Positions 5,017 through 62,560 of a stretch of 64,000 nt of DNA are shown here, piece by piece (positions within the stretch are counted from its first letter, which is position 1; each line of letters begins with the position of its first letter). Under the pieces are notes generated by a model. That model had not been told where the DNA came from. It ran no database searches and saw only the letters and a program-made list of their open reading frames with translations. Origin of the DNA: a virus. The stretch is from positions 77,844-141,843 of IMG/VR virus record IMGVR_UViG_3300032241_002679. The stretch is one strand, 5' to 3'. Made by a program: the position numbers and the translations under genes.

Positions 5017-5415
5017 TTAAACGGTATATTTAATTTTGTCATCATCCGCAACATTTGTCTTTAATTCTGATTTTTGAAGTATTTTAATAGCGTTATCTAT
5101 AGATATTATTTTAAACATAGTAAAAGGAACAATACCATCCCATACTACCTCTTCTGCATAACCATATTTTGGCAATTTATTCGTCTTAAATAATATAGCA
5201 ACTTGTCTTTTTTCATTCTTTGGTAAAACAGCACCTTTATTATATATTCCCCATTTTGCTGAAACCGCCCATGTACTAAAACCATCCTTACCTAATGATT
5301 TTTTATCAATTATATTTTTACTATTTTCTAATGTAGTAAAATGTATAAACATATCATCACTTAAACTTTTTTTAATTAGTTCTTCTTTTAATATTTTTTT
5401 TATGAACAATTTCAT
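5017..5415 (-). CDS. Putative internal head protein, ART-like fold candidate
   Basis: Likely start MKLFIKKILKEE, 4 nt after ATATTTAT; FIHFTTLENSKNII motif. The ORF-track extension runs through the MCP terminator. Confidence 0.55.
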   Translation of the reverse strand: MKLFIKKILKEELIKKSLSDDMFIHFTTLENSKNIIDKKSLGKDGFSTWAVSAKWGIYNKGAVLPKNEKRQVAILFKTNKLPKYGYAEEVVWDGIVPFTMFKIISIDNAIKILQKSELKTNVADDDKIKYTV

Positions 5416-5441
5416 AATAATAAATATTGTCTTTAAAACAA

Positions 5442-5467
5442 AAAAGCCCCACATAAGTAGGGCTTTT
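5442..5467 (-). terminator. Intrinsic terminator of the capsid operon
   Basis: aaaagccc...gggctttt just downstream of the MCP stop. Confidence 0.75.
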
Positions 5468-5488
5468 AAGTTTATATTCTTGAATCGA

Positions 5489-7381
5489 TTATCTCAATTC
5501 AGCTACATTAAATGTAACCACACCATCAACTCTAACACCAGCATAGAATCTGTTATTAACAGATTTCTTAGCATAACGTGTCATGATACCTTTAACAGGA
5601 GCAAAGTTGAAAGGATTGTACATAGTTGGGGTTAATTGCAATGGCACATATGGCGCATAGATATAACCAGTATCCAACAATGATTTACCTTTATGACCTA
5701 CAATGACACTGTAAGCAGGAGAATAAGGGTCACGATACACTTGGTAACGACCACTCAATGTTCCAATTCTTTCAATACCCATGTTATATTGGTCTTGCTC
5801 AGGGTTAGCATCACTTACGTGGAAATATTCAAGATCATCGAATATTGCAGAAATTTCTGAAGATACTACGATGAAGTTTGCACCACCACGCAATGTTGAT
5901 TTATGAATTTGTGCGCTAAGTTGATTAATCTTAGTGATAAGAGTTTGGTTCCAGTCTTTTTGTGTATAAGGACTAGCAGCTGAAGAAGCTTTTCTCCAAC
6001 CATTATAATCCCAACGCAATTGCCAAGCACCAAGTTTACGTAAATCTCTAAGGATTTCACGGTCAATTTCAGCAGCAATTTGTTCAGACAACATAGCAGT
6101 CAATTCAGCTTCAGCGTCAATGTTATGGAAAGCACTAACGTCTTGAGCCAATTCAGGTGACCACGTTGCTCTTAATTTTCTTTCTTCAACAGCCACAACA
6201 ACTTCTTGAAGTGTGAAGGTAACTTCTCCAAGTTCTGTTTCAAGTTCCAAAGAACTATATTCAGCCCATGCAAAAGAGAAAATATTAGTATATGCTGATG
6301 CTGTAGAACCAGAAGCTCCTACATAACCATCATAAGTTGATGTACCGTTAACGGCAGCACCAGTAGCAGATGTACCAACTGGATGTCTAAGATCCATCTC
6401 AATATATATTACACCTTGTGGTGATGTTAATGAACCTTTATTTTGAACAATAGCCTTACCATATTGTTGAGTTACTACTCTGAAAGGAACTTCTTTATTA
6501 GCAGCAACAATAACGTTATTATCTTGGTCCAAAATGTTTGAAGAAGTAACACAGTGTAATGAAGCTAAGAAAGATTCAGTATCCATGTTATTACCATCTG
6601 GTCCTGTTAATACTTCAGTACCATTAGAACCACCAGCACCGCCACTAAATCCACTTAAACCGATAATTACACCTCTCAATGAACCATCAGTACTTGTAGG
6701 TAAAGAAGAAGCTGGAGCAGCTACATTAAGATTACCAGTTGAATCAAATGTATAAGCGTTTAATGAAACACCAGTACCTGCACCAGAAGTTTTAATAGTC
6801 AAAGTACCTTTAGAATTATCAAACAAGCCATCATTGTAGAAAATATCATACAAATTTTTAGCATAGAATTGAGTTAATGGTGTGTTATTTGTAGCTTTTA
6901 CTACTGCATAAGGTAATGCAGCATTTGTAGCAGAACCATTGTGTTCACCATTCAATCCAGTATGTGCTGAATATGTTGTACCATATACATCACTACTTGA
7001 AGTTGTGCTATAATCATTTCCTGCAACACCACCACCGTCAACACGGCTAGATGTCTGAGGTACGAAGTAGAACAATTTACCGATAGGCATGTTCATTGCT
7101 TGAACAGATACGATATCGTTAGCCAATAATTTAGAGAATACTCTTCTCACAATTGGGAATACAACTGTTTCGAAAGAACCTGATGAAGTAGCAGTTGTAG
7201 ACTCATTCAAAAGCGTTGATGCTTGGTTCTCATATAATTGGGCAATGTTTTCTTTTACATGACCTTTAAGGCCTTCCAAGAATCCCAAGCTATCCCATTT
7301 TGCTTGAGTTTCTTTACGGATTGCTTTCATATGGTTCAATCCGATGTTACCAACTTGTCCTGATGTTAATAAATGTGACAT
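5489..7381 (-). CDS. gp23: Major capsid protein (T4 gp23-like)
   Basis: VSVQAMNMPIGKLFY, RKLRATWSPELAQD..AFHNIDAEAEL..LSEQIAAEIDREI, YAPYVPL, GIMTRYA motifs. Confidence 0.97.
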   Translation of the reverse strand: MSHLLTSGQVGNIGLNHMKAIRKETQAKWDSLGFLEGLKGHVKENIAQLYENQASTLLNESTTATSSGSFETVVFPIVRRVFSKLLANDIVSVQAMNMPIGKLFYFVPQTSSRVDGGGVAGNDYSTTSSSDVYGTTYSAHTGLNGEHNGSATNAALPYAVVKATNNTPLTQFYAKNLYDIFYNDGLFDNSKGTLTIKTSGAGTGVSLNAYTFDSTGNLNVAAPASSLPTSTDGSLRGVIIGLSGFSGGAGGSNGTEVLTGPDGNNMDTESFLASLHCVTSSNILDQDNNVIVAANKEVPFRVVTQQYGKAIVQNKGSLTSPQGVIYIEMDLRHPVGTSATGAAVNGTSTYDGYVGASGSTASAYTNIFSFAWAEYSSLELETELGEVTFTLQEVVVAVEERKLRATWSPELAQDVSAFHNIDAEAELTAMLSEQIAAEIDREILRDLRKLGAWQLRWDYNGWRKASSAASPYTQKDWNQTLITKINQLSAQIHKSTLRGGANFIVVSSEISAIFDDLEYFHVSDANPEQDQYNMGIERIGTLSGRYQVYRDPYSPAYSVIVGHKGKSLLDTGYIYAPYVPLQLTPTMYNPFNFAPVKGIMTRYAKKSVNNRFYAGVRVDGVVTFNVAELR

Positions 7382-7401
7382 AGTGTTATTTGTTTTTTTT
7401 T

Positions 7402-8850
7402 TTAATACTTATCTTTATTTTCAACTCTCTTAATCAAATCTTTAATTCTTTGAGTTGAAGGGTCAACATATGCATTTGCTTCGTTTAATTGTTTTGAAGT
7501 GCTACTTGTGACCTCTTTTATTATTTTGTTCCCTAAAGCTTCATTTATTGGTTTTCTTGTACCCAATTCATTAGCAATAGTCTTGTATAATTTTTTAGAT
7601 TCTTTAAGGTTTGTTACTTCCTCATCAAATCTTTGAATTATTTTTTTCTTTTCATCCTTAGTAGTAGAGTGTTCCATAAACAATTTAGTTACGTAACTTA
7701 AATTGCTATTGAATACAACTGTTTCTACTAACATGCTTCTGAACTTCTTAAGAGCCTTTCTGAACTCTTCATTTTCGTTCTTAAGTTGTGTAGCTTCGTT
7801 CAACAATTTCTTGTATTTTACTTCGGCTTCAGAAACAATAGACTTTGTGGAACTTTTAGATTCTGTTTTAATTGCACCATATTCCTGACCGAATTTAGCA
7901 CCAGCGCCTTTTGGTTGCCCAATATCAGCACCAGCACCACCCTTGTGACGGGATTGAGCATTTCCGACTGGAATGGCTTCTTCAACAACATCTTCATCTT
8001 CCTGATCAACTTCAGTTATTGATTCATCTTCTTCATCTTCTTCAGCCTCTGTCATTGATTCATCTTCTTCAGTTTCTGTAATGTTGTCTTTAGGATTACC
8101 TTTTTTTGTGGGTTTCATTTCATCATGGTCGGCACCTTTCATATGTTCTTTGATTTCAGATTCGTCTTCCTCATCTTCTTCCTCATCTTCCTCTTCTTCT
8201 TCATCATCTTCATTAGGTTCCTCATCCATATCAATTTCATATGTTAGGCCTTCATCCTCATTATCCATGTCTTCCATTTCTTCCATGTCTTCTTCGCCAG
8301 ATGTCTCCATACCAAGGTCTCCCTTTTTGACGATGTACTCACCTGGTTCAGAAATGTTGAGATGAATTTCATCTCCCACGATTTCAATTTCATCATCACC
8401 ACTCAATTTCTTGTAGATAGCAATAACGTCATCATCTGATGCACCTGTCATGTCTAATTCATCCCCTCCAAACGCATCTGCGTCCATTCCTGCTTCTTGG
8501 TCTTCTGGACCAACTTCAGCTGAGGCTGGAATCTCGGTGTCATCATCACTGTCCATGGCTTCAGGTTCGTCATCAATTGTTACATCTCCTTTATCACCAA
8601 TTTCATCAGAAGGCTCATCACCATCTTTTTCAATTGGTTCATCAGTTTCAGTTTCATCTGATTCCATACCATCATCATCAACAGCTTCTTCTTCGTAATC
8701 ACTTTCTTCTTTAAGTGATTCTTTCACAACACCATCAATTTCTTCTTTCGCAACGGAACGAAGTATTTCTTTGGTATTGGCATTTAAAGCCTCTTGAATT
8801 TTTTTCAAATCCAAAATAGCTCCTTCTAAAATTTCTTTTTTTTCTGCCAT
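7402..8850 (-). CDS. Prohead scaffold/core protein (gp22-like position)
   Basis: Very acidic middle, coiled-coil C-terminus, many [ILV]xE sites, located between protease and MCP. Confidence 0.8.
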   Translation of the reverse strand: MAEKKEILEGAILDLKKIQEALNANTKEILRSVAKEEIDGVVKESLKEESDYEEEAVDDDGMESDETETDEPIEKDGDEPSDEIGDKGDVTIDDEPEAMDSDDDTEIPASAEVGPEDQEAGMDADAFGGDELDMTGASDDDVIAIYKKLSGDDEIEIVGDEIHLNISEPGEYIVKKGDLGMETSGEEDMEEMEDMDNEDEGLTYEIDMDEEPNEDDEEEEEDEEEDEEDESEIKEHMKGADHDEMKPTKKGNPKDNITETEEDESMTEAEEDEEDESITEVDQEDEDVVEEAIPVGNAQSRHKGGAGADIGQPKGAGAKFGQEYGAIKTESKSSTKSIVSEAEVKYKKLLNEATQLKNENEEFRKALKKFRSMLVETVVFNSNLSYVTKLFMEHSTTKDEKKKIIQRFDEEVTNLKESKKLYKTIANELGTRKPINEALGNKIIKEVTSSTSKQLNEANAYVDPSTQRIKDLIKRVENKDKY

Positions 8851-8984: not shown

Positions 8985-10790
8985 TTAATCTATTAAAAAT
9001 CTATCGATACTTTCTATCAAACGTTCCTTTTTGATAATTCTGTTTTCTACGTATGGTTTTGATTCTTCACGATTTTTAAATACCCATGACCCTGGCGTAC
9101 TTGGAGCAGTAACAACATCCCAACAAATCAATTCAAAGTCATCTTGTACAATTAAATCACCCTTGACTTCTTTAAGACTACCAACACCCCTTGATGATAC
9201 ACCAATCATTATATTATGACGTAATAAATCTGCTACTAAATCTCCTTTAGTAGATACTATACCATAAGTCTGATATCCTTTAGTCATGAGGATTTCCATC
9301 TTACCCATTAGGGTATGATCCTCCCACCATGTTTCAATAATATTGTGTGAAATTCTATCCGCTGAAATAACGCTTGATTCTGGGTGGTCACAATTATGTG
9401 TCCATGCAGATGCGTTGTTATATCTCATAAGCCATGTGTTATTAGGTACAGAGACACAATAAACATTATCATTAATTTTTTCTAATTCTGCTTTTATAAA
9501 CCTATTATCTAATGATATACTTGAAGAATTTTTTTCGGATACTATATACAATGGTTTTGAATTAGAGGCTAATATCTTTCTTTTAATTTTTTTACTTATG
9601 ACTGAAACAGTTCCATTTTCATCCTCAACTTCATTTTCAACTTCATTATCAATAATGTACCTATCAGTTTGTATTCTAGTATTAATTGAAGCACCACTAC
9701 CTAATTTTAATATTATTTCATAGACATCATCAGCTAATTTTTTGGATGTTGTATAATACTCTCTGAGTAGTTCTCCCTTCAAATTATGCCTATTTCTTCC
9801 GTCACCCATTAACAACCATTCAAATAATATATTTAATATTTCAACACTCCAATTTTTAGCATAATTTGGAATATACTTTTCCCAAGAATTTCCTAAAACT
9901 TTTAAATGTTCATATAAATTTTTATCTGTTATAATGAATTGTCTATTATTTGATACCCTATATTTAAATGGTAATCTATTAAGTAGCTCTATTAATTTTT
10001 CTTGTTGAACTGATTTGGTCTGTGTTATAATAACATTATTTATAGTTTTACCGCCACGGCTACCAGAAGTATGCCCCTCAGCAATAAAAATACCTAAAAA
10101 TGCAGCCCAATCTTTTATATCTATTTTAATATCTGTATTTGGTAAAATGAAAAATTCTTCATTTTTACCATTCCAATTACCACCATAATGAATAGAGGAA
10201 TGAGATAATGTAGAATTTTTATTTTTCAATTTCTCATAAAATTCAATAGCTGTTAATTCATATGGTTTATTATACCTATCCCAAAGAATCATTTTATGGT
10301 TCTTTGTTAATTTCATATCTAAAGAACATTTTTTATTATATATGTGAACTAATTCGTCATTATATTTTTTTTCAATTGTATATGAAATTGGCTGTAATTC
10401 AATCTCATTTTTATTTACATTAAGTGTAAAAATTTTCTCACCAGCTACAACATCTGTTATATTTTTCCAGCCAGTACTTGTCAATATTTCTGTGTCTCTG
10501 GTAACACATTCACCGACAGCTCTTCTTTCTCTTATATTTTGTTGATAAATTTCATTCTGTTTTCTTAGAATATCTTCTGGATATATTCTACCGTTACGGT
10601 TTTTTACATTGTATTTTTGAAGAACGACATATACTATTAATTTGTCTGAAGTACTAGATTTTAAATCTATTTTTTCAAATTCACGTATAATATTTTTATT
10701 TCTTTCATCCAATGGTGAAATAAACCCTGCATCCCCTTCAATTAAAAATCCATAACCAGTTTCATTAGCCTTTAATATTTTTATATCCAT
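8985..10790 (-). CDS. gp21: Prohead protease (T4 gp21-like) with LAGLIDADG intein
   Basis: KNRNGRIYP, GE-[intein]-CDHP, GVSSRGVGSL, WDVVTAPSTPGS; start reassigned to MDIKILK downstream of ATATTTAT. Confidence 0.93.
   Translation of the reverse strand: MDIKILKANETGYGFLIEGDAGFISPLDERNKNIIREFEKIDLKSSTSDKLIVYVVLQKYNVKNRNGRIYPEDILRKQNEIYQQNIRERRAVGECVTRDTEILTSTGWKNITDVVAGEKIFTLNVNKNEIELQPISYTIEKKYNDELVHIYNKKCSLDMKLTKNHKMILWDRYNKPYELTAIEFYEKLKNKNSTLSHSSIHYGGNWNGKNEEFFILPNTDIKIDIKDWAAFLGIFIAEGHTSGSRGGKTINNVIITQTKSVQQEKLIELLNRLPFKYRVSNNRQFIITDKNLYEHLKVLGNSWEKYIPNYAKNWSVEILNILFEWLLMGDGRNRHNLKGELLREYYTTSKKLADDVYEIILKLGSGASINTRIQTDRYIIDNEVENEVEDENGTVSVISKKIKRKILASNSKPLYIVSEKNSSSISLDNRFIKAELEKINDNVYCVSVPNNTWLMRYNNASAWTHNCDHPESSVISADRISHNIIETWWEDHTLMGKMEILMTKGYQTYGIVSTKGDLVADLLRHNIMIGVSSRGVGSLKEVKGDLIVQDDFELICWDVVTAPSTPGSWVFKNREESKPYVENRIIKKERLIESIDRFLID
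9393..10508 (-). mobile_element. Intein, 372 aa, LAGLIDADG type, in prohead protease
   Basis: CVTRDTEIL...VYCVSV..WTHN/C; FLGIFIAEG and WLLMGDG motifs. Confidence 0.92.
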
Positions 10791-10826
10791 AGATAATTTT
10801 ATTATAATAAATATGCTAATGGACAT

Positions 10827-10855: not shown

Positions 10856-10878
10856 AATTTTTAATTTTTATTTTATCT

Positions 10879-20600: not shown

Positions 20601-20771
20601 AAAACGTTCTTTTTCGTATGAAAAAATAATTTCTTTTTGTCTTGGAAATAGTTTAAAAGGTACAAATCCTTCTTGTGTTTTGTCAAATGTCTCTAAATAA
20701 GTCTCAATTGCATAAATTGGACTGGATAAACATTTGGCGTATTCTCTTATTATTTCCTCTCTAGTGAGCAT
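17679..20771 (-). CDS. gp17: Terminase large subunit (T4 gp17-like) with intein
   Basis: KPRQAGVST Walker A, LVMDEAA Walker B, ISTPNG motif III, GVDVSRGDGEDSS and HDDL nuclease motifs. Confidence 0.96.
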   Translation of the reverse strand: MLTREEIIREYAKCLSSPIYAIETYLETFDKTQEGFVPFKLFPRQKEIIFSYEKERFNLITKPRQAGVSTTTAAYLAIKAAFADDENPEAVLIIANKQELAFEFLAKIKDFVSQLPRWVWGPEYYGNSRNEEKTIFITDSKKEIRLPNGSRIKAVATSKDALRGFTPTYLVMDEAAYIDNGAIVFGAALTALGCLTKESLILTKEGLIELDELVKEKKQIGFTTLETPHKVCDMYGKLTDVTQTFVSEYGETYKIKTKLGLELEGSWKHPIYISDNEINKWVRFNELKVGDMPIVQYNQNYFGDFLYDFDYKPTINEKEINIPTNLNNNLDFAYLLGLFVAEGNFQKGGIVITNGDKKIQDFLINDGSKLGRGFKKSREYHYYLSSKKLVAWLEYYGFKKHNARDKTIPSCILKSSKNVIKSFLQGLFDGDGCSTVKEVKYSTTSHDLAKKLQILLLNFGIISRIKKENQKTSQSSIILNKEHITEIYNLYIYSNNAIKFYDEIGFRLERKQEKKKFLINKIKNKRFVFVKKREIETVLSDNKIPKYKVRFLERFWNSKYSRLTYNAIDKLNEKIKHPILDNINRKVEINKNFYVDEIIEISKSENYTYDLHVPETNSFISNGIISHNTGGKATLISTPNGMDKLYYETYAQSKAKKNNFNIIEMKWYEDLRYNKDLKWIKGDEIIEEFEFTFESYNNKILNGYKPTSSWYEEMCRGMNNDAKMIAQELDVSFIGSGGNVISEEIIEEQKKFNVEDPLFIDGSENEIWIWKKPEEGHQYIMGVDVSRGDGEDSSTIVILDFTTMEQVMEYQGKIQPDLLAQLVEEYGELYKAYTIVDITGGMGVSTVLKLLEFDYKRLHYDTPNGKILSSKQKQMETFKKDNKVPGLQVSSIRLQMISNFEEKVRNNLVKIKSIRMISEMKTFVFKNGRPDHMDGYHDDLIFAMAMCLWVLEHSFKNLERLEKQTKAMLSSWISPNSPNEIINDRMKGHGFVSNNNRYKKQTERPNFSPIVAKNMQDPTGQYMWLFSGAR
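18888..20192 (-). mobile_element. Intein, 435 aa, LAGLIDADG type, in terminase
   Basis: ALG/CLTKESLI...LLGLFVAEG...FLQGLFDGDG...TYDLHV..ISHN/T. Confidence 0.93.
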
Positions 20772-24227: not shown

Positions 24228-24606
24228 TTTCTAATACTAAATCTTTTTCATACAGCTTATTTTGAACTTCTTCCAATGTCTCACCAAACTTAAAACATAG
24301 CCTATGTTCAGGATATGATTCATAGCTATCAGTATTTTCCCATGCTAAAGCAATCACTCCGTCTAATGCATCCCATACAGCAAACGTATCACTATTTTGA
24401 ACTACATCTAACTTTATTTCCGATTTTAATACTAAAGCTTTTTTAATAAATATATCATGTGGTGGTTCAGGACGAGTAGATGCTGGGAATGAATCCCAGT
24501 TTTCGCCATCAATATTTTTTGTTGTATCAGAAAAAAGAAATTCATAAATAAAATTTCCTTTATAATCTTTACCGACATAATTTACATATATTAAATATAG
24601 TTTCAT
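24208..24606 (-). CDS. Hypothetical protein
   Basis: 132-aa ORF with coupled overlaps on both sides. Confidence 0.6.
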   Translation of the reverse strand: MKLYLIYVNYVGKDYKGNFIYEFLFSDTTKNIDGENWDSFPASTRPEPPHDIFIKKALVLKSEIKLDVVQNSDTFAVWDALDGVIALAWENTDSYESYPEHRLCFKFGETLEEVQNKLYEKDLVLENEKQEK

Positions 24607-25124
24607 TACTTTTTAGCTTTAGGATCTGTTTTTATGCCTGGTGTTACGTTAGGTAAAAATGGTTTATCTTTTCTACTTGGTTCTTTTACAGGCTTTATGA
24701 AAGGCTCATTTGGGCTTTTCTTTGGTTTTACTTCTGGTTTTACCTCTGGTGTCATATTTTTTTGTTCAAATATACTATTTTTTTTTGAATTGTCAAAATT
24801 TTTACTTTCACCCATCATACCACCAATTCCGATTGAATCAATTTTTGGTGATGAATTTTGAACTAAATTTTCATGTCCTGTTCTATCCATTTGAGCTTCT
24901 AAAAAATGGCATACTTGGTCTATATCATCTTTTGCAATAGCAATATGATCTAACGCCCAATTACTATCAATTAATATTTCATCCAATTTATTTTGATCCA
25001 TTTGCATAATTTTAGCAGTAGCCTCATAAATTGTTTTTATATTATTAAAAAACATATAATTCTGTGGCCCATCTTCGTGGGTTTCAACCATTTCATGTAA
25101 TTTTTTCTTAATTATATTTTTCAT
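24606..25124 (-). CDS. Probable internal head protein (paralog of the next gene)
   Basis: MKNIIKKKLHE leader; QNYMFF..WALDHIA..IDQV.HFL module. Confidence 0.6.
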   Translation of the reverse strand: MKNIIKKKLHEMVETHEDGPQNYMFFNNIKTIYEATAKIMQMDQNKLDEILIDSNWALDHIAIAKDDIDQVCHFLEAQMDRTGHENLVQNSSPKIDSIGIGGMMGESKNFDNSKKNSIFEQKNMTPEVKPEVKPKKSPNEPFIKPVKEPSRKDKPFLPNVTPGIKTDPKAKK

Positions 25125-25129: not shown

Positions 25130-25729
25130 TTAAACTATTTTAGATACAGGTTTACTTGACCACATTCTACATGACCAATATTTTGGTGTAGTACGATCTT
25201 TAGCCTGTGAACATTTATGTCTGGCTCTGAATGATTTTCTTCTTTCTGGATTATCTCTTTTAATTTCCATATTAGGATCGCCAAAATTTACTTTAACCAC
25301 ATTACCCTTTTTATTTTTAACATATACTTTAAACTTTTTAACATCACCCTTTGTTGGTTTACCCAATTTAACAGATTTACCCTTATATTCAGCTTCATTC
25401 ATTACAGATTCGACACTTCCATATTCATCCTCATAACCACCCTCTGTATTACCAATTTCTGGGGATAATTCTTCAACATCATCATAGCCTACATTCGCAT
25501 CTAAGAAATGATGTACTTGATCTATATTTTCTTTTGCTGATGCAATATGGTCAAGTGCCCAATTATGTCCATCTGATATTAATCTATCAACTTCAGATGG
25601 TTCTAATTTTAGAATTTCGTCAACAATTTCTTTAATTGTTTTTAAATCATTAAAGAACATATAATTTTGTTGTTCATGAGAATGTTCATTAATCATTTCG
25701 TGTAATTTTTTTGTGATTAAGTCTTTCAT
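25130..25729 (-). CDS. Probable internal head protein with basic C-terminal domain
   Basis: MKDLITKKLHE leader; VMNE/AEYKGKSVKLGKP..FKVYVKN..RRKSFRARHKC..YWSC domain. Confidence 0.65.
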   Translation of the reverse strand: MKDLITKKLHEMINEHSHEQQNYMFFNDLKTIKEIVDEILKLEPSEVDRLISDGHNWALDHIASAKENIDQVHHFLDANVGYDDVEELSPEIGNTEGGYEDEYGSVESVMNEAEYKGKSVKLGKPTKGDVKKFKVYVKNKKGNVVKVNFGDPNMEIKRDNPERRKSFRARHKCSQAKDRTTPKYWSCRMWSSKPVSKIV

Positions 25730-45978: not shown

Positions 45979-46002
45979 AAAACCCCACTTTTGTGGGGTT
46001 TT
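45979..46002 (+). terminator. Intrinsic terminator
   Basis: aaaaccccac-tttt-gtggggtttt. Confidence 0.8.
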
Positions 46003-46017
46003 CTTATATTTATAAGC

Positions 46018-46419
46018 ATGAAGAAATTTATAAAAAGTTTACTCAATGAAGGTCTCTTTCATAGAAATTCAAAAGAACAATTGAAGCTAATGGAGGAATT
46101 TATTAACTTTACTTGTAAAGAATTAAACATTGATCCAGTACCAGTAAATCTACAATTTAATCATGATGGACTAGTTACAACTGCAGCATATGGGGATAAA
46201 AAAGTATATGTATATGCTAAAGATCGTGCTATAGTAGATATTATGAGAAGTATAGCACATGAACTTACCCACTTAAAACAAGACCTAGAGGGTAGACTCA
46301 ATCCTAAAAATCATGAAAAAAATAATGCCGCTGGTTCAGATATTGAGAACGAAGCAAATTATAGGGCTGGGGAAATAATAAGAAAATTTGGAAAAATACA
46401 TCCTGAAATTTATCCATGA
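46018..46419 (+). CDS. HEXXH metallopeptidase-like protein with capsid-targeting-like leader
   Basis: MKKFIKSLLNE; RSIAHELTHLKQ..ENEAN; start 4 nt after ATATTTAT. Confidence 0.7.
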   Translation: MKKFIKSLLNEGLFHRNSKEQLKLMEEFINFTCKELNIDPVPVNLQFNHDGLVTTAAYGDKKVYVYAKDRAIVDIMRSIAHELTHLKQDLEGRLNPKNHEKNNAAGSDIENEANYRAGEIIRKFGKIHPEIYP

Positions 46420-49080: not shown

Positions 49081-49278
49081 TTATTTGCTAGCTAACTTGC
49101 TGATTTTTTCTTCCAATTTGTTTAATTTGGATTCCAAAATAGCTGTTTTGTCGCCTTTTTTAGCCTGTTCAGCAAGCCATTCTTTCTTTTTAACTTGAAT
49201 TGCTTCGCTTACAATGTTATCAATTAAATCAACCAAATCATTTTCAGAAATTCTAACGGTTTTTTTTGCGTTTGACAT
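49081..49278 (-). CDS. Small late protein with leader-like motif
   Basis: KKTVRISENDLVDLIDNIVSE; ATATTTAT at 49316. Confidence 0.6.
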   Translation of the reverse strand: MSNAKKTVRISENDLVDLIDNIVSEAIQVKKKEWLAEQAKKGDKTAILESKLNKLEEKISKLASK

Positions 49279-49360
49279 ATGCATATTTTTTTAAGTGAAT
49301 ATATTTATCTTGATTATAAATATACATTTTTTTTGAAAAAGATTAATTTTACTTAATTTT

Positions 49361-52144: not shown

Positions 52145-52483
52145 TCAATTTATTGGGACATTTTTCGATAATTTATTATCCTTAATTTTACCAAACATCC
52201 AATCCTTTATCACTTGTTTCGTAAATTCATCACCTAGCTTATATTTCTTCTTGAAATATTCATATAATTCTTTAATAGTCGTCTCAGTATTATCTACCTT
52301 TATCTTGACCATCGGTTCTTCATAATACTCACCATCCTCACGAACAATCCCAAGCATTGGCTCATAATTAGAATTTAAATCAGCTACCAATTTCTCCACA
52401 AGAGTCTCATGCATATTATTTTCCATAATACTCCTTTTTAAAACTTGTAATTGTCTCTCATTTATAATAATTGTTCTTCCCAT
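52145..52483 (-). CDS. Late protein with leader-like motif
   Basis: MGRTIIINERQLQVLKRSIME; ATATTTAT 5 nt upstream. Confidence 0.6.
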   Translation of the reverse strand: MGRTIIINERQLQVLKRSIMENNMHETLVEKLVADLNSNYEPMLGIVREDGEYYEEPMVKIKVDNTETTIKELYEYFKKKYKLGDEFTKQVIKDWMFGKIKDNKLSKNVPIN

Positions 52484-53451: not shown

Positions 53452-53895
53452 TTAAATTTCAATATCAACATTTGGTAGAGGCTTGGTTTTTAATTTTTCA
53501 ACTATTTCAATCAAATCTTCATATATATCCTCAATATAACCCAAATCAATTAATTCATTATCTATTTCACTGGATAATAGATCCAATTTAGAGACATTAT
53601 CTGGCTGCTCATTAAAATTATATGAATTAGCTACATCATAATATTTGCCATTTCTTTTATTCATTATCTTAATAAAATTTTCTAGATCCTTTTTCTTATT
53701 GTTTAATATAGAAACATTCTCATAAATCTCATTAATAGATATTGACATAGCATAATTAAATGCTACTTTATATTTATTTTTAACGTCCTCTAAATCTTTA
53801 GATGCCGCTTTTAGCAAATCATCAATATAATTTGAATCATAACTTATATTATTTTCAAGTAATTTATACTGTCTCTCCGTTATTCTAACTTTCAT
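53452..53895 (-). CDS. Late helical protein with leader-like motif
   Basis: MKVRITERQYKLLE; ATATTTAT at 53908. Confidence 0.6.
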   Translation of the reverse strand: MKVRITERQYKLLENNISYDSNYIDDLLKAASKDLEDVKNKYKVAFNYAMSISINEIYENVSILNNKKKDLENFIKIMNKRNGKYYDVANSYNFNEQPDNVSKLDLLSSEIDNELIDLGYIEDIYEDLIEIVEKLKTKPLPNVDIEI

Positions 53896-56342: not shown

Positions 56343-56879
56343 ATGAATTTAAAAAAATTTATACATAAAAAATTTAGAATTCTGACAGAAAATCTTATCG
56401 AAATGGTCGAGAATGCGCTGACCTTTAATGAACTTCCGTCATGTATAAAAGACAATTTTCATAAAAATATTACAATGAGCGTAGCTTTTGTTAAAAAAGA
56501 TGGAACCGTAAGACATATGGCATTTAGAAGAAATCTTAAATCATATGTAAAAAGCGATAGACCAAAAACTGATGCACAAAAAAATATACTGATTAATAAT
56601 AATTTACTTAATGTCTATGATACAAATCTATATATCAAAGCATTACAAGAGACACAGGATCAAACTGCTGCCGCTAAAGTAAGTTATAGAAATATTAAAT
56701 TGGATACAGTATTAGCTATACTCTGCAATGGCCAAATACATGATTTTAGAGATCGTAATAAAATAATGGATATTTATGGTGAAACGGTATATAATCAATT
56801 GACAAAAAATATGATACACGCACTTAATAAAGATACTGAGAATACTAATTTAAATTTACCAGAAAATCCAGAAATATGA
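56343..56879 (+). CDS. SH3/WYL-like beta-barrel protein with leader
   Basis: MNLKKFIHKKFRILTE; VAFVKKDGTVRHM..VYD..YRNIKLD. Confidence 0.6.
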   Translation: MNLKKFIHKKFRILTENLIEMVENALTFNELPSCIKDNFHKNITMSVAFVKKDGTVRHMAFRRNLKSYVKSDRPKTDAQKNILINNNLLNVYDTNLYIKALQETQDQTAAAKVSYRNIKLDTVLAILCNGQIHDFRDRNKIMDIYGETVYNQLTKNMIHALNKDTENTNLNLPENPEI

Positions 56880-57718
56880 TATTCATTAAAAATGCTATAA
56901 TAGAAAATACCATTAACCATACAGTATCTCATATGGATGAAATATCCAATATATATGAAACAGCTATTAAAAATATGGATGCTGAAATAAAAATACCTAA
57001 TAATGTTCTCAATAGCTTTAAAATTAAAAATGAACTTAATCCAGAAATTTGGCATAATAATAAAATTAATTCAGAAATTAAAAATAAACTAATTAAAATA
57101 GCTAAAGACTTCTTTAAAAATCTAGAATTACCAAATAATATAAAAATAAAAGATATCCTCTTTGTAGGTAGCCTAGCTAATTATAATTGGTCTAAATATA
57201 GCGACATAGACTTACATATTCTAATCGATTTCTCAAAATTTGAGGATAAAGATATTATTAAAAAATTCTTCGATAGTAATAAAAATATGTTTAACCTTAA
57301 ACATAATATCAAAGTTAAAGGACATGATTTAGAATTATATGTACAAGATACTAAAGAAAAATTATCAGCATCAGCTATATATAGCTTAATGCATGATAAA
57401 TGGATTCTCATGCCTAAAGAAGTCGATTTTAAATTGGATAAATCTTTAATTAAAATAAAAATAACTAAAATATTTGATAAACTTAAAATCATAAAAAAAA
57501 ATTATGATAAAAAAAATTATCAAAAAACAATTGATTATATAGATGACCTTAAAGACTATATAAAAAAAATGAGACAAAGCGGACTAGAAAAAGGCGGTGA
57601 ATTTAGTATAGAAAATATAATATTCAAAATACTTCGTAGAACTGATATTATGGAATATCTAGATACATTCAAAAATAAAGCCTATGATAACATGGTATCA
57701 ATTAAAGAACAATTATGA
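56876..57718 (+). CDS. Pol-beta-superfamily nucleotidyltransferase
   Basis: GSLANYNWSKYSDIDLHILID, ELYVQD, GEFSIENIIFKILRR. Confidence 0.82.
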   Translation: MIFIKNAIIENTINHTVSHMDEISNIYETAIKNMDAEIKIPNNVLNSFKIKNELNPEIWHNNKINSEIKNKLIKIAKDFFKNLELPNNIKIKDILFVGSLANYNWSKYSDIDLHILIDFSKFEDKDIIKKFFDSNKNMFNLKHNIKVKGHDLELYVQDTKEKLSASAIYSLMHDKWILMPKEVDFKLDKSLIKIKITKIFDKLKIIKKNYDKKNYQKTIDYIDDLKDYIKKMRQSGLEKGGEFSIENIIFKILRRTDIMEYLDTFKNKAYDNMVSIKEQL

Positions 57719-59172
57719 CATTCACAAACTTACCCTCAGATTATTTCCTAAAACGTATACCATTCCTTAAATCATTTGATGATTTTTCTGACCAAAAACA
57801 TATTTTTTTTACAAAAAAATCATATAATAAAAATGTCAGTGTAATGAATGGTAGTAATCTATTTAAATTTAAAATGTTAAATATATCAATAGAATTCTAT
57901 TATTATACCTATAGACCTAATAAAAATAATCAACTATTTAATATTATACTTAGTACTAAATTCTATCCAACGTTTGATAGAGATACTGATGATATTACTA
58001 AAAATGTCTTAATACAGACATTCAGACTCATTGAACAAAAATTATCCTATAGTCAAGAACTTATTTCTAAGACAGATAGTTTACCTGATAATGAAATGGA
58101 TAGAATTATTAATGAAGTTAATAAAAAATTCTTCGAATTAGAGGAATATGTAAATGACAAAATGAAACTAAATAACCCCCTAGATGAGACCAAAACTTTT
58201 ATTAAAAATAAATTAAAAACTTTATTAGAGACATATAAAGCACCTAAATTCGATGATGAATTAAAAGCTATTTCAAATCCATTCCAAAGACATATAAAAC
58301 CATTATCAAAAGAAGAATTAAATAAAATAAAAATTATTAATACGGAGGCTAAACAAATCGCAATAGCTTATCGTAACGCCTTTGAAAATAATCTTAATAA
58401 ATTTAGAGCCAATTATAGAGGCAGAATAATCGAAGGAATTATACCAGACTCATTCAAAAATGATAAAAATAATATAAATTATTTCGATGATCCGACAATT
58501 GGCGATGGCGGCATGCAAATGAAATTAAATAAAGAGGGAGAATTAATCGCAACTAATGTTAAAGCAAGCCCAAAAATGGCTGATAATCCTGAATTATCAT
58601 CAGCCACAGATGCTGGCTCCTATTATGACTATCAAGGCGCTATTAGATACTTCAGAATTAATGTCGGAATAGAGGGAAAATATAATGAAAATAAAAAATA
58701 TTCCGTATTCATTACCCCAGATATGGATGCTGAAATAAAAACTAGAGTCGCCTTTAATAAAGAAATTATTTCATTCCTAAACCCATCACAATCATATATG
58801 GACGATACAGCAAAAGAAAAAGCTAATACAATGGAACTATTCCCATTCCTAAACGCAGTGAGAAGTAATGCTGAAGAAATATTATCTGATTTATATAAAA
58901 CTACTATATCACTGAAAGCTAATCCAGTATGGATCGAATTTAGAAATAAATACCAAAAAATAGCTCCAAATACCGTATTCAATTCAAAAGACCTGAATGC
59001 TGAAATATCTGATTTAGTTCAGAAATATAAAATCAAAAATTTATTTAAACAAAAAAAAGATACGCCAATTAGTATGAATCCAGATGAATTGGCTGACTTC
59101 GAAAAAAAAGAAAAAGAAAAAGCCGATAGATTGGCAAAATTTAAAGCTAGAAAAAAAATATTAAAACAATAG
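57715..59172 (+). CDS. Modular probable internal head protein
   Basis: N-terminal module paralogous to 25726-27249; NPLDE/TKTFIKNKLKTLLE internal leader. Confidence 0.6.
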   Translation: MTFTNLPSDYFLKRIPFLKSFDDFSDQKHIFFTKKSYNKNVSVMNGSNLFKFKMLNISIEFYYYTYRPNKNNQLFNIILSTKFYPTFDRDTDDITKNVLIQTFRLIEQKLSYSQELISKTDSLPDNEMDRIINEVNKKFFELEEYVNDKMKLNNPLDETKTFIKNKLKTLLETYKAPKFDDELKAISNPFQRHIKPLSKEELNKIKIINTEAKQIAIAYRNAFENNLNKFRANYRGRIIEGIIPDSFKNDKNNINYFDDPTIGDGGMQMKLNKEGELIATNVKASPKMADNPELSSATDAGSYYDYQGAIRYFRINVGIEGKYNENKKYSVFITPDMDAEIKTRVAFNKEIISFLNPSQSYMDDTAKEKANTMELFPFLNAVRSNAEEILSDLYKTTISLKANPVWIEFRNKYQKIAPNTVFNSKDLNAEISDLVQKYKIKNLFKQKKDTPISMNPDELADFEKKEKEKADRLAKFKARKKILKQ

Positions 59173-60312: not shown

Positions 60313-60363
60313 CTCTATCAATTTTTGACAAAAATACATAAAAAATATATAAAAACTAAATAA

Positions 60364-60837
60364 TTATTTACTTAAATTAGCATAATAATTTATATAACGC
60401 TTTAAACACCTAGACTTAATCTCTATCCACTTCTTCATATTAACCTTAATATCCATCGAAATACTTAACTTTAAACCCTCACTCCATGCCATAAATTCTT
60501 CCTCAAGACTACTTACTATATATGAATTCCTTCTCATATATTTCTTATTATTCTTGATTAACTTAATCTCCTCAGCATAAGCTATCACTGGAAACCTCTT
60601 CTCAAAATTATCCCAATTTTTCCTCAATTCATGATGACCTAACTCATGTAACATCAAATATACTTGATTCTCAATAGTCTCCTTAGCTTGAATATGCAAT
60701 ATACTGGGATTATATAAATTATTTCTGTCCCAACTAATAAATGAATAATCATCCTCAAAAGATATATCTATAAAACCCTCAGACTCAGCATACTGCCTTA
60801 ATTTCTCCAATGCCTTCTTATAACTATATCTCGCCAT
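60364..60837 (-). CDS. HEXXH metallopeptidase-like protein
   Basis: LMLHELGHHEL..EEEFMAWSEG; ATATTTAT 4 nt upstream. Confidence 0.7.
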   Translation of the reverse strand: MARYSYKKALEKLRQYAESEGFIDISFEDDYSFISWDRNNLYNPSILHIQAKETIENQVYLMLHELGHHELRKNWDNFEKRFPVIAYAEEIKLIKNNKKYMRRNSYIVSSLEEEFMAWSEGLKLSISMDIKVNMKKWIEIKSRCLKRYINYYANLSK

Positions 60838-60917
60838 ATCTATAAATATAAGAATTCTTACATTTATATGTCAATTCTTTAATAATTATTAATATTTATA
60901 TTCATAAAAATGAATAT

Positions 60918-61325
60918 ATGAATTTAAAAGATTTTAATTATTGGCATGATAAAATTGGCATTATTACAGAGAATGATCTTAAACTCGTCTCCAAAAAAAG
61001 AATGATTAATAATCTATATAAATTATTAAAAAAAAATAAAATAGAAAAAATTTATAATGATGAATATTGGAATGGCATTAGAGAATTAGAAAAAACCCTT
61101 AAAGAATTTGGCGTTGATTACGAATTACAATCAGCTGACTACTATCACCTAACAGATTCTAACTCACAATTGCCAAATGGTAAACAATATGTCTATGATA
61201 TTACTTTCACTGATAATGACCAAAAAAATCATCACATAGACCTCATCGTAAATTGCGCCTTTGTCGGAAAAACTGGTACCATGGAAGATGATAAATATGA
61301 ATTGACCTATTATTTCGCAGCATAA
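60918..61325 (+). CDS. Hypothetical late protein
   Basis: ATATTTAT at 60892; IITE site. Confidence 0.55.
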   Translation: MNLKDFNYWHDKIGIITENDLKLVSKKRMINNLYKLLKKNKIEKIYNDEYWNGIRELEKTLKEFGVDYELQSADYYHLTDSNSQLPNGKQYVYDITFTDNDQKNHHIDLIVNCAFVGKTGTMEDDKYELTYYFAA

Positions 61326-61345
61326 TTAAAAAAATATAAATTTAA

Positions 61346-62560
61346 TTAAACTTTATCCAACTTAAACATATACTCCTTAGAAAAATTATCATACCCACTA
61401 TTTCGAACTATTTCCTTAACCTTATCAACAGTATACCTATTTAACAAATAATTTAAAAACTCATTTATACTACCACCACTATTCCTTAATTCAAAAAAAT
61501 AATCCATATCCTCAATACTCAAATATCCACCATACTTATAACCATTAAAATATATTCCCCTCAAATCTTCCAATTTATCCGCACCATCAACAGCTTCCCA
61601 CTTATCATACTTTTCAGTATCATAATTATAACCCAAACGATATAACCCCCACATACTAGCAAAATCCTTTTTCACCCCAAATCTTTTTCCATGTACCTTA
61701 TATTCATAAAACTGCTTTAAATTACTAACACCAACTTTGCGCATCATTCGTGTTAATATCTCCACAACCTCTCTAAACTTCCCACCCTTGCCCATCTTAA
61801 AATGATTATGAATATCAGCCATTATTCCTTCCAAACTATGATTGTTATACATCATGCTACTCATTATATTATGAATCGAATATAAATCAGCTTCCAATTC
61901 ATGCTTAGCAATAAACTTACCAACATCTCTTTTAAACAATTCATAATCATCCAAATATTTCTCATTATAAAACATTAAAGCCAATATGCCCTCATATCTA
62001 TCATTTAATGAAGAAACATGCCCATCAACATCTTCACCCCCGCCAATCTTATCATTAATCTTGTTTTTGCCCATAAACATATCCTTGTCATTGGCATATA
62101 CATTTATTTCAACTCCCTTGGATTTCCCCAATTTTAATACCTCATATAATCCCCTTTCAAAATTTTCATTTTTTTCATCATACAATATATCCACCCTTTT
62201 AATGTATTTGGTTACTTGAGAAATAACAGCCTTGTCAGATAATAAACGGTCCTCAAATTCATCTTTGTGACTTCCTCCCCAATAATTAACAGGCTTGGAA
62301 CTATAATTATAATTTAACTTCAAGCCATTAAACACAATCCCGACAACATTTGTCCTGCCACCATGAAACCCTTGTTTTACACTGCCACTACGACTTAATG
62401 ATAAAAAAAATACCTTTTTATCAAATTCATCCGATGTGCCGCCTAATGACGTGGATAAATTAATCTTGTCACTTTTTAATATGTCCAATAAATTCCTGAG
62501 ATACGTAAAATGATACTCCTCAGGTTGCAAAATCTCATTTAAAACCGACATTATCTTCAT
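61346..62560 (-). CDS. Probable virion-packaged ART-like protein
   Basis: MKIMSVLNE leader; YHFT..LDILKSD..FLSLSRS..DEFEDRL; start reassigned from 62644. Confidence 0.55.
   Translation of the reverse strand: MKIMSVLNEILQPEEYHFTYLRNLLDILKSDKINLSTSLGGTSDEFDKKVFFLSLSRSGSVKQGFHGGRTNVVGIVFNGLKLNYNYSSKPVNYWGGSHKDEFEDRLLSDKAVISQVTKYIKRVDILYDEKNENFERGLYEVLKLGKSKGVEINVYANDKDMFMGKNKINDKIGGGEDVDGHVSSLNDRYEGILALMFYNEKYLDDYELFKRDVGKFIAKHELEADLYSIHNIMSSMMYNNHSLEGIMADIHNHFKMGKGGKFREVVEILTRMMRKVGVSNLKQFYEYKVHGKRFGVKKDFASMWGLYRLGYNYDTEKYDKWEAVDGADKLEDLRGIYFNGYKYGGYLSIEDMDYFFELRNSGGSINEFLNYLLNRYTVDKVKEIVRNSGYDNFSKEYMFKLDKV

What the first reader, a model, noticed from the sequence alone, without database searches (positions are those of the whole stretch)
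5017..62560. Genome-wide capsid-targeting-like leaders put diverse enzymes in line for packaging
Seen: unrelated late genes share a basic amphipathic leader ending in a hydrophobic-x-E site: MKLFIKKILKE (5415), MKNIIKKKLHE (25124), MKDLITKKLHE (25729), MKKFIKSLLNE (46018), MNLKKFIHKKFRILTE (56343), MKIMSVLNE (62560). A second type reads KVRITERQYKLLE (53895), RTIIINERQL..IME (52483), TVRISENDL..IVSE (49278). Established: T4 internal proteins carry a short N-terminal capsid-targeting sequence removed by gp21 after Glu in [IL]-x-E. Inference: promoter plus leader works as a portable address tag that loads cargo (metallopeptidase, ART-like proteins, SH3-like protein) into the head for injection as host-takeover or anti-defence effectors.
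Basis: partly seen in the sequence, partly recalled or inferred. Interest (0 to 1): 0.8.

Follow-up and report, generated by a model that had tools for sequence, protein, structure and literature searches.

The report
Capsid-address leader peptides, jumbo phage
An uncultured T4-like jumbo phage starts about ten unrelated proteins with short leader peptides that end where its head protease should cut; thousands of proteins in related phages carry the same leaders, so they are probably tags that load changeable enzymes into the virus head, as in phage T4, though nobody has shown this at the bench.

Summary
All nine N-termini are at the stated coordinates. The core motif MKx[LIF]IKKxLxE heads 5 proteins of the 142-kb contig, against 0.002 expected.

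The window belongs to a roughly 325-kb, AT-rich, T4-superfamily phage known only from metagenomes. It has a gp21-type (Peptidase_S77) head protease. Its major capsid protein carries LLNE|S exactly where T4 gp23 and gp24 are cut.

In related phages:
- The type 1 leader (MKxLIKKILKE) heads at least 93 proteins falling into at least 65 unrelated cargo groups.

Similarity stops at an invariant Glu. Homologous cargos carry different leaders or none. The slot just downstream of the capsid gene holds a leader gene with a different cargo from phage to phage.

Cargos include ADP-ribosyltransferase-fold, ArdC-like, zincin, NUDIX, GNAT, Acb1-like and peptidoglycan-binding proteins.

Packaging and cleavage are inferred, not shown, and no cultured relative exists. 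"Genome-wide" overstates the case: complete genomes hold 1-3 exact copies of a type. This is a new variant of the T4 capsid-targeting principle. The scan had already noted T4-style leaders in other T4-like phages.

The parts
5017..5415 (-). Type 1 leader gene (MKLFIKKILKE|E, leader codons 5383-5415) with a 121-residue cargo of unknown fold. It lies in the variable slot just downstream of the capsid gene.
   Evidence: matrix score 28. Homologues keep leaders MNQIKKILRE and MKSLIKRLLRE. Relatives hold other cargos at this slot.
5420..5427 (-). ATATTTAT promoter-like motif 4 nt before the ATG of the 5415 gene.
5442..5467 (-). Terminator hairpin between the capsid gene and the leader gene cassette.
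24606..25124 (-). Type 1 leader gene (MKNIIKKKLHE|MVE|T) with a 'YMFF' domain cargo; paralogue of the next gene.
   Evidence: Relatives carry the same domain behind the 22-residue leader.
25130..25729 (-). Type 1-like leader gene (MKDLITKKLHE|MINE|H). Cargo is the YMFF domain plus a C-terminal domain widespread in marine phages.
46018..46419 (+). Type 1 leader gene (MKKFIKSLLNE|G) with an HExxH (HELTH) cargo, read as a zincin-type metallopeptidase from the motif alone. It lies just downstream of the ClpB-like gene, a second variable slot.
   Evidence: score 16.3; homologue in L017 starts MKSLIRKILKE, while homologues of about 700 residues have no leader.. Pfam gave no hit above cut-off.
46006..46013 (+). 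ATATTTAT motif 4 nt before the ATG. A terminator hairpin lies at 45979-46002 just upstream.
56343..56879 (+). Variant leader (MNLKKFIHKKFRILTE|NLIEMVE|N) on a cargo with a weak WYL_2/SH3-like hit.
   Evidence: E 0.008, below cut-off. Homologues carry at least five other leader types or none.
61346..62560 (-). Short leader (MKIMSVLNE|I) on a 404-residue protein whose N-terminal domain has an ADP-ribosyltransferase fold (Tpt1/KptA- and DarT-like).
   Evidence: family alignment; pLDDT 86; residues 1-8 below 50; Foldseek probability 1.0, E 5e-4.
53452..53895 (-). Leader variant MKVRITERQYKLLE|NN, of the 'MKIIITESQY' class.
52145..52483 (-). Diverged long leader MGRTIIINERQLQVLKRSIME|NN.
   Evidence: below noise on the canonical matrix; homologue in L110 starts MRKKLVITENQLKMLTSVLSE|N.
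49081..49284 (-). Diverged long leader M(HM)SNAKKTVRISENDLVDLIDNIVSE|A on a 67-residue protein.
   Evidence: score 6.3 against an internal maximum of -4.6. L110 homologue.
8985..10790 (-). gp21-type prohead protease (Peptidase_S77) interrupted by a LAGLIDADG intein; the presumed enzyme that removes the leaders.
   Evidence: 57.5 bits; cut-off 27; the spliced form aligns with T4 gp21 and keeps GE.[DN]HP and GVSSRG.GSL.
7402..8850 (-). Candidate scaffold (gp22 position). It has a hyperacidic centre and coiled ends, with 4.4 hydrophobic-x-E sites per 100 residues against 1.8 in the proteome. It is the proposed docking partner of the basic leaders.
   Evidence: The position between protease and capsid gene matches T4. 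No family hit.
5489..7381 (-). gp23-type major capsid protein. The predicted maturation site LLNE|S (codons 7202-7213) aligns with the T4 gp23 LTE|A and gp24 LRE|S sites.

Best explanation
The leaders are lineage-specific counterparts of the T4 capsid-targeting sequence.

Proposed mechanism:
1. A short N-terminal amphipathic helix docks the newly made protein onto the assembling prohead core. The helix is basic in type 1 and heptad-like in the 22-residue type 2. The likely partner is the hyperacidic scaffold encoded at 7402-8850.
2. After shell assembly, the gp21-type protease (8985-10790, once its intein has spliced out) cuts after the invariant Glu of the [LI]-x-E end.
3. The freed cargo stays in the head and leaves with the DNA at infection.

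Shown here:
- The motif exists and is under protein-level selection.
- It sits at the N-terminus.
- Similarity stops sharply at Glu.
- It is portable across more than 150 unrelated cargos.
- Leader types are specific to lineages.
- The genomes have a T4-type head module.
- The capsid protein has a matching cleavage site.

Inferred: docking, cleavage, packaging, injection and late timing.
For: 1. T4-type head genes are present: capsid protein, portal, large terminase and a Peptidase_S77 protease over its Pfam cut-off with gp21 motifs kept.

2. The capsid site ENQASxL[LI]xE|[STAGQ] is invariant in 20 relatives and aligns with the T4 gp23 and gp24 cut sites. The leaders end in the same [LI]-x-E.

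3. The terminal Glu was left free in the DNA pattern for type 2, yet is E in 123 of 123 proteins. In independently fetched type 1 leaders it is E in 9 of 9. In T4, Asp at this place blocks processing (PMC9026906).

4. In type 1, positions the pattern left free are conserved: position 8 is I/L/V in 86 of 93 and position 10 is K/R in 77 of 93. Conservation ends one residue after the Glu. Synonymous codons vary, for example Leu9 as TTA 60, CTT 20, CTA 9.

5. 211 leader proteins form 154 cargo clusters. The type 2 profile finds 8,720 cluster representatives, almost all matching at residue 1.

6. One cargo family carries several leaders or none. In the 62560 family, three homologues start with Met exactly at the residue after the Glu. 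The 56343 family has at least five leader types.

7. In at least 8 of 20 relatives the slot after the capsid gene holds a leader gene with a different cargo.

8. Cargo domains match what is known or proposed to travel with DNA: ART-PolyVal, an ART fold (T4 Alt is a packaged ART), ArdC N-domain, SprT-like, Acb1, NUDIX and GNAT. LysM, PG_binding_1 and OmpA domains occur without any signal peptide.

9. Type 1 and type 2 are nearly exclusive between genomes, as expected if the partner is phage-encoded.

10. The TATTTAT motif precedes the terminase, protease and fibre genes, 46 of 93 type 1 genes and 78 of 110 type 2 genes, against 2% of random positions.
Against: - There is no proteomic, N-terminal or expression evidence. 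No cultured phage carries these leaders.
- The leaders share nothing with T4's MKTYQEFIAE beyond the M-K start, the hydrophobic spacing and the [LI]-x-E end.
- In the window, the residue after the first Glu is Met or Leu in three cases (25124, 25729 and the contig's ArdC-like protein). These differ from the small or polar residues at the capsid site, although a second x-E site follows within three residues in the two paralogues.
- Some proteins carry a second, internal copy of the type 2 leader, so the motif is not strictly an N-terminal signal.
- The TATTTAT motif also precedes homing-endonuclease and secreted-protein genes, so it does not prove late timing.
- The leaderless homologues could be wrong gene starts.
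Confidence: 0.6

Rival explanations
1. The leaders are docking helices for a phage-encoded partner other than the prohead core, and they are not cut off. Candidates are a tail or baseplate part, the ClpB-like unfoldase encoded at 42933-45974, or a replication or assembly compartment.
For: Lineage-specific leader types fit any phage-encoded partner. Internal copies occur in fusion proteins. A variable leader-gene slot lies next to the ClpB-like gene. Peptidoglycan-binding cargos would also suit an external virion part.
Against: This does not explain the invariant Glu, never Asp, at the exact end of similarity. It does not explain the match to the capsid protein's own cleavage site. It does not explain homologues that begin exactly after the Glu. 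Cargos are mostly enzymes that act on cytoplasmic substrates.
Confidence: 0.2
2. The shared start is an mRNA-level feature. On this view an A-rich, unstructured opening of near-leaderless messages drives translation initiation in a host without Shine-Dalgarno sites, and the peptide has no function.
For: The promoter motif lies only 4-7 nt before the ATG of many type 1 genes. The codons are A/T-rich. Lys at position 2 is common in this proteome (29 of 153).
Against: Synonymous codons vary freely while the residues stay fixed, for example Leu9 TTA/CTT/CTA and Ile5 ATT/ATA/ATC. Substitutions are conservative at the protein level (I/L/V, K/R). Type 2 genes have the motif 14-17 nt upstream and G/C-containing codons. 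Internal copies exist. Most genes in the genome lack the motif.
Confidence: 0.05
3. The proteins are one divergent superfamily that kept an ancestral N-terminal helix, so the similarity reflects common descent and not a portable tag.
For: Some members are true paralogues, such as 25124 and 25729, and there are clusters of up to 8.
Against: There are 154 BLAST clusters, 121 of them singletons. The Pfam folds behind the leader are unrelated: ART, NUDIX, GNAT, kinase, zincin, LysM, OmpA. The same cargo occurs behind different leaders or none.
Confidence: 0.05
4. The leader is a recognition sequence for a modifying or processing enzyme other than the head protease, in the manner of RiPP leader peptides or the radical-SAM tag that an earlier report of this scan found in RB43-like phages.
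For: A conserved leader with a hypervariable body is the RiPP pattern. Tandem arrays of leader genes occur.
Against: Cargos have a median length of 126-159 residues and are often folded enzymes, with low Cys content. No maturase-like gene recurred among the neighbours; the recurrent neighbours are the capsid gene, the 471-residue protein at 2177-3592, ClpB-like and KTSC proteins and endonucleases. The neighbour screen was limited to homologues of this contig's genes.
Confidence: 0.04

Closest known systems
Phage T4 capsid-targeting sequence (CTS) of internal proteins IPI, IPII, IPIII and of Alt, removed by the gp21 prohead protease (Mullaney and Black 1996, as reviewed in PMC9026906; also PMC3012670)
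   Same: - A short N-terminal tag (10 residues in T4; 9-22 here) starts with M-K, has amphipathic hydrophobic spacing and ends in [L/I]-x-E.
- The cargos behind the tag are unrelated, fast-evolving proteins, including an ADP-ribosyltransferase.
- The phage has a homologous protease, and its capsid protein is predicted to be cut at the aligned site.
- Tagged genes lie in variable slots.
   Different: - There is no sequence similarity to MKTYQEFIAE.
- The type 1 tag is strongly basic.
- A 22-residue type and several further types exist, and they are lineage-specific.
- The scale is far larger: 8,720 clusters for one type.
- Cargos on average are slightly acidic rather than basic DNA-binding proteins.
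- Nothing has been tested experimentally.
N-terminal propeptides of head and ejection proteins of giant phages phiKZ, 201phi2-1 and SPN3US, cut after Glu by diverged gp21 homologues (PMC9026906, PMC5694885, PMC7411985)
   Same: These are jumbo phages that pack many different proteins. Cleavage follows Glu after a short motif. Propeptides can hold several redundant sites, as in the window's KLHE-MVE and ILTE-NLIE-MVE.
   Different: No shared, recognisable leader sequence is described for those phages, as far as I know. Their motif is S/A/G-x-E (my own recollection, not checked here), not [LI]-x-E. Their head genes are much more distant from T4 than those of this phage.
Polyvalent proteins of phages and conjugative elements (Iyer, Burroughs, Anand, de Souza and Aravind 2017; from my own knowledge, not read here) and ArdC, which is transferred with conjugative DNA
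   Same: The domain repertoire overlaps: ART-PolyVal, ArdC N-domain, zincin/SprT-like metallopeptidase. These are proposed to enter the recipient cell with the DNA and to counter defence.
   Different: In polyvalent proteins the domains are fused into one giant protein. Here each is a small separate gene behind its own leader.

Membership tests
T4-type capsid-targeting sequence (CTS) system | The phage encodes a gp21-type (Peptidase_S77) prohead protease within a T4-type head gene module. | tested here: met
   Pfam PF03420 at 57.5 bits (cut-off 27), phrog_207, and gp21 motifs kept after removing the intein. The gene order portal, small proteins, protease, scaffold, capsid matches T4.
T4-type capsid-targeting sequence (CTS) system | The tag is at the extreme N-terminus and ends in [L/I]-x-Glu. 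| tested here: met
   (about 120 of 123 N-terminal; E in 123 of 123; position -2 is I, V or M)..
T4-type capsid-targeting sequence (CTS) system | Sequence similarity to the T4 CTS MKTYQEFIAE. | tested here: not met
   T4 ipII and ipIII start with this peptide. The leaders here share only M-K, the hydrophobic spacing and the [LI]-x-E end.
T4-type capsid-targeting sequence (CTS) system | One conserved tag on otherwise unrelated, variable proteins. | tested here: met
   154 cargo clusters among 211 proteins. Pfam domains are diverse.
T4-type capsid-targeting sequence (CTS) system | The tag is removed by the prohead protease. | not testable with these tools
   Indirect only: the capsid site aligns with T4, and three homologues start right after the Glu.
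T4-type capsid-targeting sequence (CTS) system | The tagged proteins are present inside mature heads and are ejected. | not testable with these tools
   No cultured member exists, and no proteome is available.
T4-type capsid-targeting sequence (CTS) system | Expression together with the head genes (late). | tested here: inconclusive
   The TATTTAT motif is shared with the terminase, protease and fibre genes, but also with endonuclease and secreted-protein genes. There is no timing data.
ADP-ribosyltransferase fold (for the protein at 61346-62560) | ART-type fold of the N-terminal domain. | tested here: met
   AF2 model with pLDDT 86. Foldseek top hits are Tpt1/KptA and DarT, probability 1.0, E 5e-4, TM 0.66 on the target.
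ADP-ribosyltransferase fold (for the protein at 61346-62560) | Catalytic residues in place. | tested here: inconclusive
   Conserved YH.T, LS.SR and E.E.R motifs are seen in 23 homologues. They were not mapped onto the active site.
Sec, Tat or lipoprotein signal peptide | A hydrophobic core of 10 or more residues after a basic start. | tested here: not met
   The leaders are charged throughout. Only 2 of 98 type 1 and 7 of 113 type 2 proteins have any membrane-like segment.
RiPP precursor peptides | A short core peptide and a dedicated maturase gene nearby. | tested here: not met
   Cargos have a median of 126-159 residues and include folded enzyme domains. No recurrent maturase was seen among the neighbours, in a screen limited to homologues of this contig's genes.

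The most novel reading that the evidence does not exclude
A whole clade of roughly 300-kb T4-like phages, probably of Bacteroidota, uses several interchangeable, lineage-specific address peptides to load a hypervariable arsenal into the capsid for delivery with the DNA. The types seen are an 11-residue basic type, a 22-residue RLTESDL type found on 8,720 protein clusters, and at least three more. The arsenal includes ADP-ribosyltransferases, ArdC-like, Acb1-like, NUDIX and peptidoglycan-binding proteins. If so, the leader alone would be a sequence handle that picks out thousands of injected host-takeover and anti-defence effectors from metagenomes.
Probability: 0.5. Interest if true: 0.75.

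Novelty: new variant of a known kind. Interest (0 to 1): 0.62.

Why it matters
If the leaders are capsid address tags, they mark the proteins a phage delivers together with its DNA. That is the first wave of host takeover and counter-defence, and it is otherwise very hard to recognise from sequence. One profile of 22 residues already collects 8,720 distinct protein clusters, most with no known domain. This would be a large, ready-made catalogue of candidate effectors from uncultured jumbo phages.

The finding would also show that the T4 capsid-targeting principle is old and general within the T4 superfamily, and that its 'dialect' changes with lineage. That makes the co-evolution of tag and scaffold testable. 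It would also offer new tags for packaging foreign proteins into phage heads.

Tried and rejected
- Near-identity DNA search against cultured phages found nothing.
- tblastn of the 5415 protein and of a type 2 leader protein against 50,697 phage records gave no true match. No cultured phage, and so no virion proteome, can be used.
- AlphaFold2 of the 5415 protein with 3 sequences gave pLDDT 36. I therefore did not test whether it is ART-like and make no claim.
- Sequence searches of the Protein Data Bank with the 46018 protein and the ArdC-like protein gave nothing useful.
- The protein Atlas could not read new sequences.
I could not check whether the 'leaderless' homologues hide an upstream leader, nor fetch the 324,674-bp contig that carries identical proteins.
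- I considered the upstream 'WGFF' peptide similarity between 5454 and 45991. It is simply the translation of terminator hairpins.
- I considered MKKLKKYKLKE (contig position -31065, score 5.1) as a sixth leader.
- A link between the leaders and the ClpB-like gene was considered but rests only on adjacency.

Full report
**What the window is**

The 64-kb window is the last part of a 141,843-bp IMG/VR viral contig, estimated 40% complete. G+C is about 28%. Proteins identical to two of its products lie on a 324,674-bp contig elsewhere, so the genome is about 325 kb.

On the minus strand lies a T4-type head module:
- large terminase (17679-20771);
- portal (12791-17368);
- four small proteins;
- a Peptidase_S77 prohead protease interrupted by a LAGLIDADG intein (8985-10790);
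- a 482-residue hyperacidic protein in the gp22 position (7402-8850);
- a gp23-type capsid protein (5489-7381).

With the intein removed, the protease aligns with T4 gp21 and keeps the GE.[DN]HP and GVSSRG.GSL motifs. The nearest cultured capsid proteins are about 38% identical, from Flavobacterium phage immuto. No cultured phage is close at the DNA level.

All nine quoted N-termini are there.

Type 1:
- The tight form MKx[FILVM][ILV][KT][KS]x[L]xE heads five proteins of the contig. No independent internal site exists in about 45,000 residues, and composition predicts 0.002.
- The pattern was chosen after seeing the data, so I tested it on other DNA.
- In 93 non-redundant full ORFs the positions left free are conserved. 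Position 8 is I/L/V in 86 and position 10 is K/R in 77. Similarity ends one residue after the Glu.
- Synonymous codons vary (Leu9 TTA 60, CTT 20, CTA 9; Ile5 ATT 55, ATA 28, ATC 10), so selection acts on the peptide.
- A matrix from these leaders scores the contig's five N-termini at 7.9-28. Only 8 of 40,216 internal 11-mers exceed 5.

The loose feature 'hydrophobic-x-E near the start' is hardly enriched (26% against 18%). The two weakest members (56343 and 62560) stand only because their homologues begin with canonical leaders.

**The second type**

- It is N-terminal in about 120 of 123 non-redundant cases.
- The final Glu was not part of the search pattern, yet is E in 123 of 123.
- Its second half (IVKRVIxE) resembles the type 1 core (LIKKILKE).
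- A profile of 100 such starts finds 8,720 representatives at E of 0.001 or better (1,370 at 1e-10 or better) among 1.84 billion cluster representatives, almost all matching from residue 1.
- Some proteins hold two copies, as leader-cargo-leader-cargo.

In the window only 49278/49284 scores above noise on this matrix. 52483 and 53895 match recurring variants (MRKKLVITENQLKMLTSVLSE, MKIIITESQYKRLIE).

**Which phages carry the leaders**

The contigs that carry either leader are fragments of genomes of 290-350 kb.
- 13 of 49 hold a Peptidase_S77 gene.
- 27 of 50 and 15 of 31 hold a capsid protein match; the full-length matches are 57-85% identical to the window's.
- 5 of 6 near-complete type 2 genomes have that capsid protein.
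- Complete genomes hold only 1-3 exact copies of a type.
- The two types are almost exclusive between genomes. Type 2 occurs in 1 of 21 genomes found through type 1, and type 1 in 1 of 5 complete type 2 genomes.

**Link to the head protease**

Aligned with T4 gp23 and gp24, the window's capsid protein has LLNE|S exactly where T4 is cut, at LTE|A and LRE|S. The T4 cut positions are from my own knowledge and agree with the L/I-x-E rule in PMC9026906. In 20 relatives this site reads ENQASxL[LI][NTS]E followed by S, T, A, G or Q, with the Glu invariant. The leaders end the same way:
- type 1: [IL]-L-[KR]-E, then E, S, N, T, Q, G or A;
- type 2: V-I-x-E, then Q, S, N, E, D or G.

In T4 the CTS is the first 10 residues. 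Residues 4 and 7 serve targeting and residues 8 and 10 serve processing. Asp in place of the final Glu blocks processing (PMC9026906). T4 ipII and ipIII do begin MKTYQEFIAE.

**Portability**

- 98 type 1 proteins form 65 BLAST clusters. With 113 type 2 proteins added, the total is 154 clusters, 121 of them singletons.
- The 'YMFF' domain of 25124 and 25729 carries type 1 here and the 22-residue leader in L063, L089, L113 and L200. The C-terminal domain of 25729 occurs behind type 1, short and ITESQY-type leaders. It also occurs without any of them in Pelagibacter, Roseobacter and other phages.
- In the 62560 family, 23 homologues have very different N-termini that all end in [LI]-x-E in one alignment column. 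Three homologues start with Met exactly at the next residue.
- The 56343 family occurs behind at least five leader types, including ELxRMxxLAGLINE and MRKxDKKxNM...QLxE, or none.
- In at least 8 of 20 relatives the gene just downstream of the capsid gene has a type 1 leader and a different cargo. The window's 5415 gene sits in that slot. A second slot follows the ClpB-like gene, where 46018 sits.
- 5415 and 46018 are each a self-contained unit of terminator hairpin, ATATTTAT, 4 nt and ATG.
- TATTTAT lies within 40 nt of the start in 46 of 93 type 1 genes (mostly 4-7 nt) and 78 of 110 type 2 genes (mostly 14-17 nt), against 2% of random positions. It also precedes the terminase, protease, 255-residue and fibre-like genes, as well as endonuclease and secreted-protein genes.

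**Cargo**

- Type 1 cargos in relatives include ART-PolyVal (L117, E 1.7e-12), ArdC N-domain, SprT-like, NUDIX, GNAT, AAA_33, Acb1, 2H phosphoesterase, protein kinase and DHH.
- The contig's fifth leader protein, outside the window, has weak ArdC-N and zincin hits below the cut-offs.
- 62560 folds with pLDDT 86, its first 8 residues disordered. Its N-terminal domain matches Tpt1/KptA and DarT (probability 1.0, E 5e-4).
- 46018 has an HExxH motif.
- 56343 has a weak WYL_2 hit below the cut-off.
- 5415 could not be assigned.
- Type 2 cargos with a domain are mostly peptidoglycan binders: LysM in 4, PG_binding_1 in 3, OmpA in 2. They have no signal peptide and rarely a membrane segment. This makes sense for proteins that reach the cell wall through the tail, but that is an inference.

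**Mechanism and rivals**

The best reading is a lineage-specific capsid-targeting sequence cut by the S77 protease (confidence 0.6). The 482-residue scaffold candidate is extremely acidic and rich in hydrophobic-x-E sites (4.4 against 1.8 per 100). The leaders are amphipathic, with hydrophobic moments of 0.73 and 0.63, though only the consensus type 2 leader clearly beats its shuffles (about 1% of shuffles reach it, against about 4% for the type 1 consensus and 6-17% for the window's own leaders). A charge-assisted helix-to-scaffold contact is plausible but untested.

The rivals are:
- docking to another phage partner without cleavage (0.2);
- an mRNA-level start signal (0.05);
- common descent (0.05);
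- a tag for another enzyme (0.04), the caution raised by an earlier report of this scan on RB43.

The invariant Glu at the edge of similarity, the match to the capsid site, the homologues that begin after the Glu, and the synonymous variation argue against these rivals. None of them is excluded by experiment.

**What is known, and novelty**

The principle of a conserved CTS on diverse, fast-changing internal proteins is established for T-even phages (PMC3012670, PMC9026906). Full-text searches for these motifs found no phage paper. Searches for capsid targeting in jumbo phages found only the T4, phiKZ and SPN3US work. Pfam has no model for the leaders.

Earlier reports of this scan describe T4-style leaders in other marine T4-like phages. 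First-reader notes on related genomes mention the same promoter-leader cassettes. So this is a new variant of a known kind. It is notable for its scale, its several lineage-specific leader types and its cargo list.

Noticed in passing
window 5420-5427, 46006-46013, and upstream of 62560 and 52483 (motif ends 5 nt before the ATG): The ATATTTAT promoter-like motif ends only 4-7 nt before the start codon of many type 1 leader genes, here and in relatives. If it is a -10-type element, these messages would be leaderless or nearly so. Type 2 genes keep 14-17 nt.
   Followed up: partly
proteins P0004, P0005, P0006, P0011, P0012, P0016, P0021, P0023, P0093: Some metagenomic proteins carry two copies of the 22-residue leader, as leader-cargo-leader-cargo. 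The internal copy is often preceded by a hydrophobic-x-E site (IFE|NKKVVRLTESDL). They look like fusions of neighbouring leader genes, or small polyproteins.
   Followed up: partly
homologues of window 56343-56879 (P0179, P0185-P0188, P0196-P0203): Two further recurring N-terminal leaders...EELKRMxQLAGLINE|N and MRKxDKKxNMxKANxLAExxYLxxKxQLxE|E, sit on the same cargo in other phages. Neither occurs on this contig.
   Followed up: partly
(genomes G000-G093): Type 1 and type 2 leaders are almost mutually exclusive between genomes of the clade. This suggests co-evolution with a phage-encoded partner. It was not controlled for phylogeny.
   Followed up: partly
window 8985-10790, 12791-17368, 17679-20771, 42933-45974: The protease, portal, large terminase and a ClpB/ClpC-like AAA+ protein (1,013 residues) all carry inteins or endonuclease inserts. 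The head protease must splice before it can work.
   Followed up: partly
relatives G005:C1:185578-185971 and 152644-155029; G026:C1:85580-87965 and 118514-118907; G035:C1:41832-42225 and 72774-75159: Small ORFs of 78-145 residues match separate pieces of the major capsid protein (residues 20-92, 387-447, 557-618), far from the real capsid gene. Their origin is unexplained.
   Followed up: no
window 25726-27249 and 57715-59172; relative L008:4812-5318: Two large proteins share an N-terminal 'KRIPFLK' motif. A relative carries that motif right behind a type 1 leader (MKKLIKKLLRENLESNNNIKDILIKRIPFL). The 507-residue protein has HSLNE|D near its start, so further cargo proteins may exist.
   Followed up: no
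window 7402-8850: The protein in the scaffold position has an acidic tract of about 200 residues (runs of D and E) between coiled ends, and no hit in Pfam or PHROGs.
   Followed up: partly
proteins P0001 and P0178: Proteins identical to two window products are recorded on a 324,674-bp contig, so a near-complete copy of this genome exists in another assembly.
   Followed up: no
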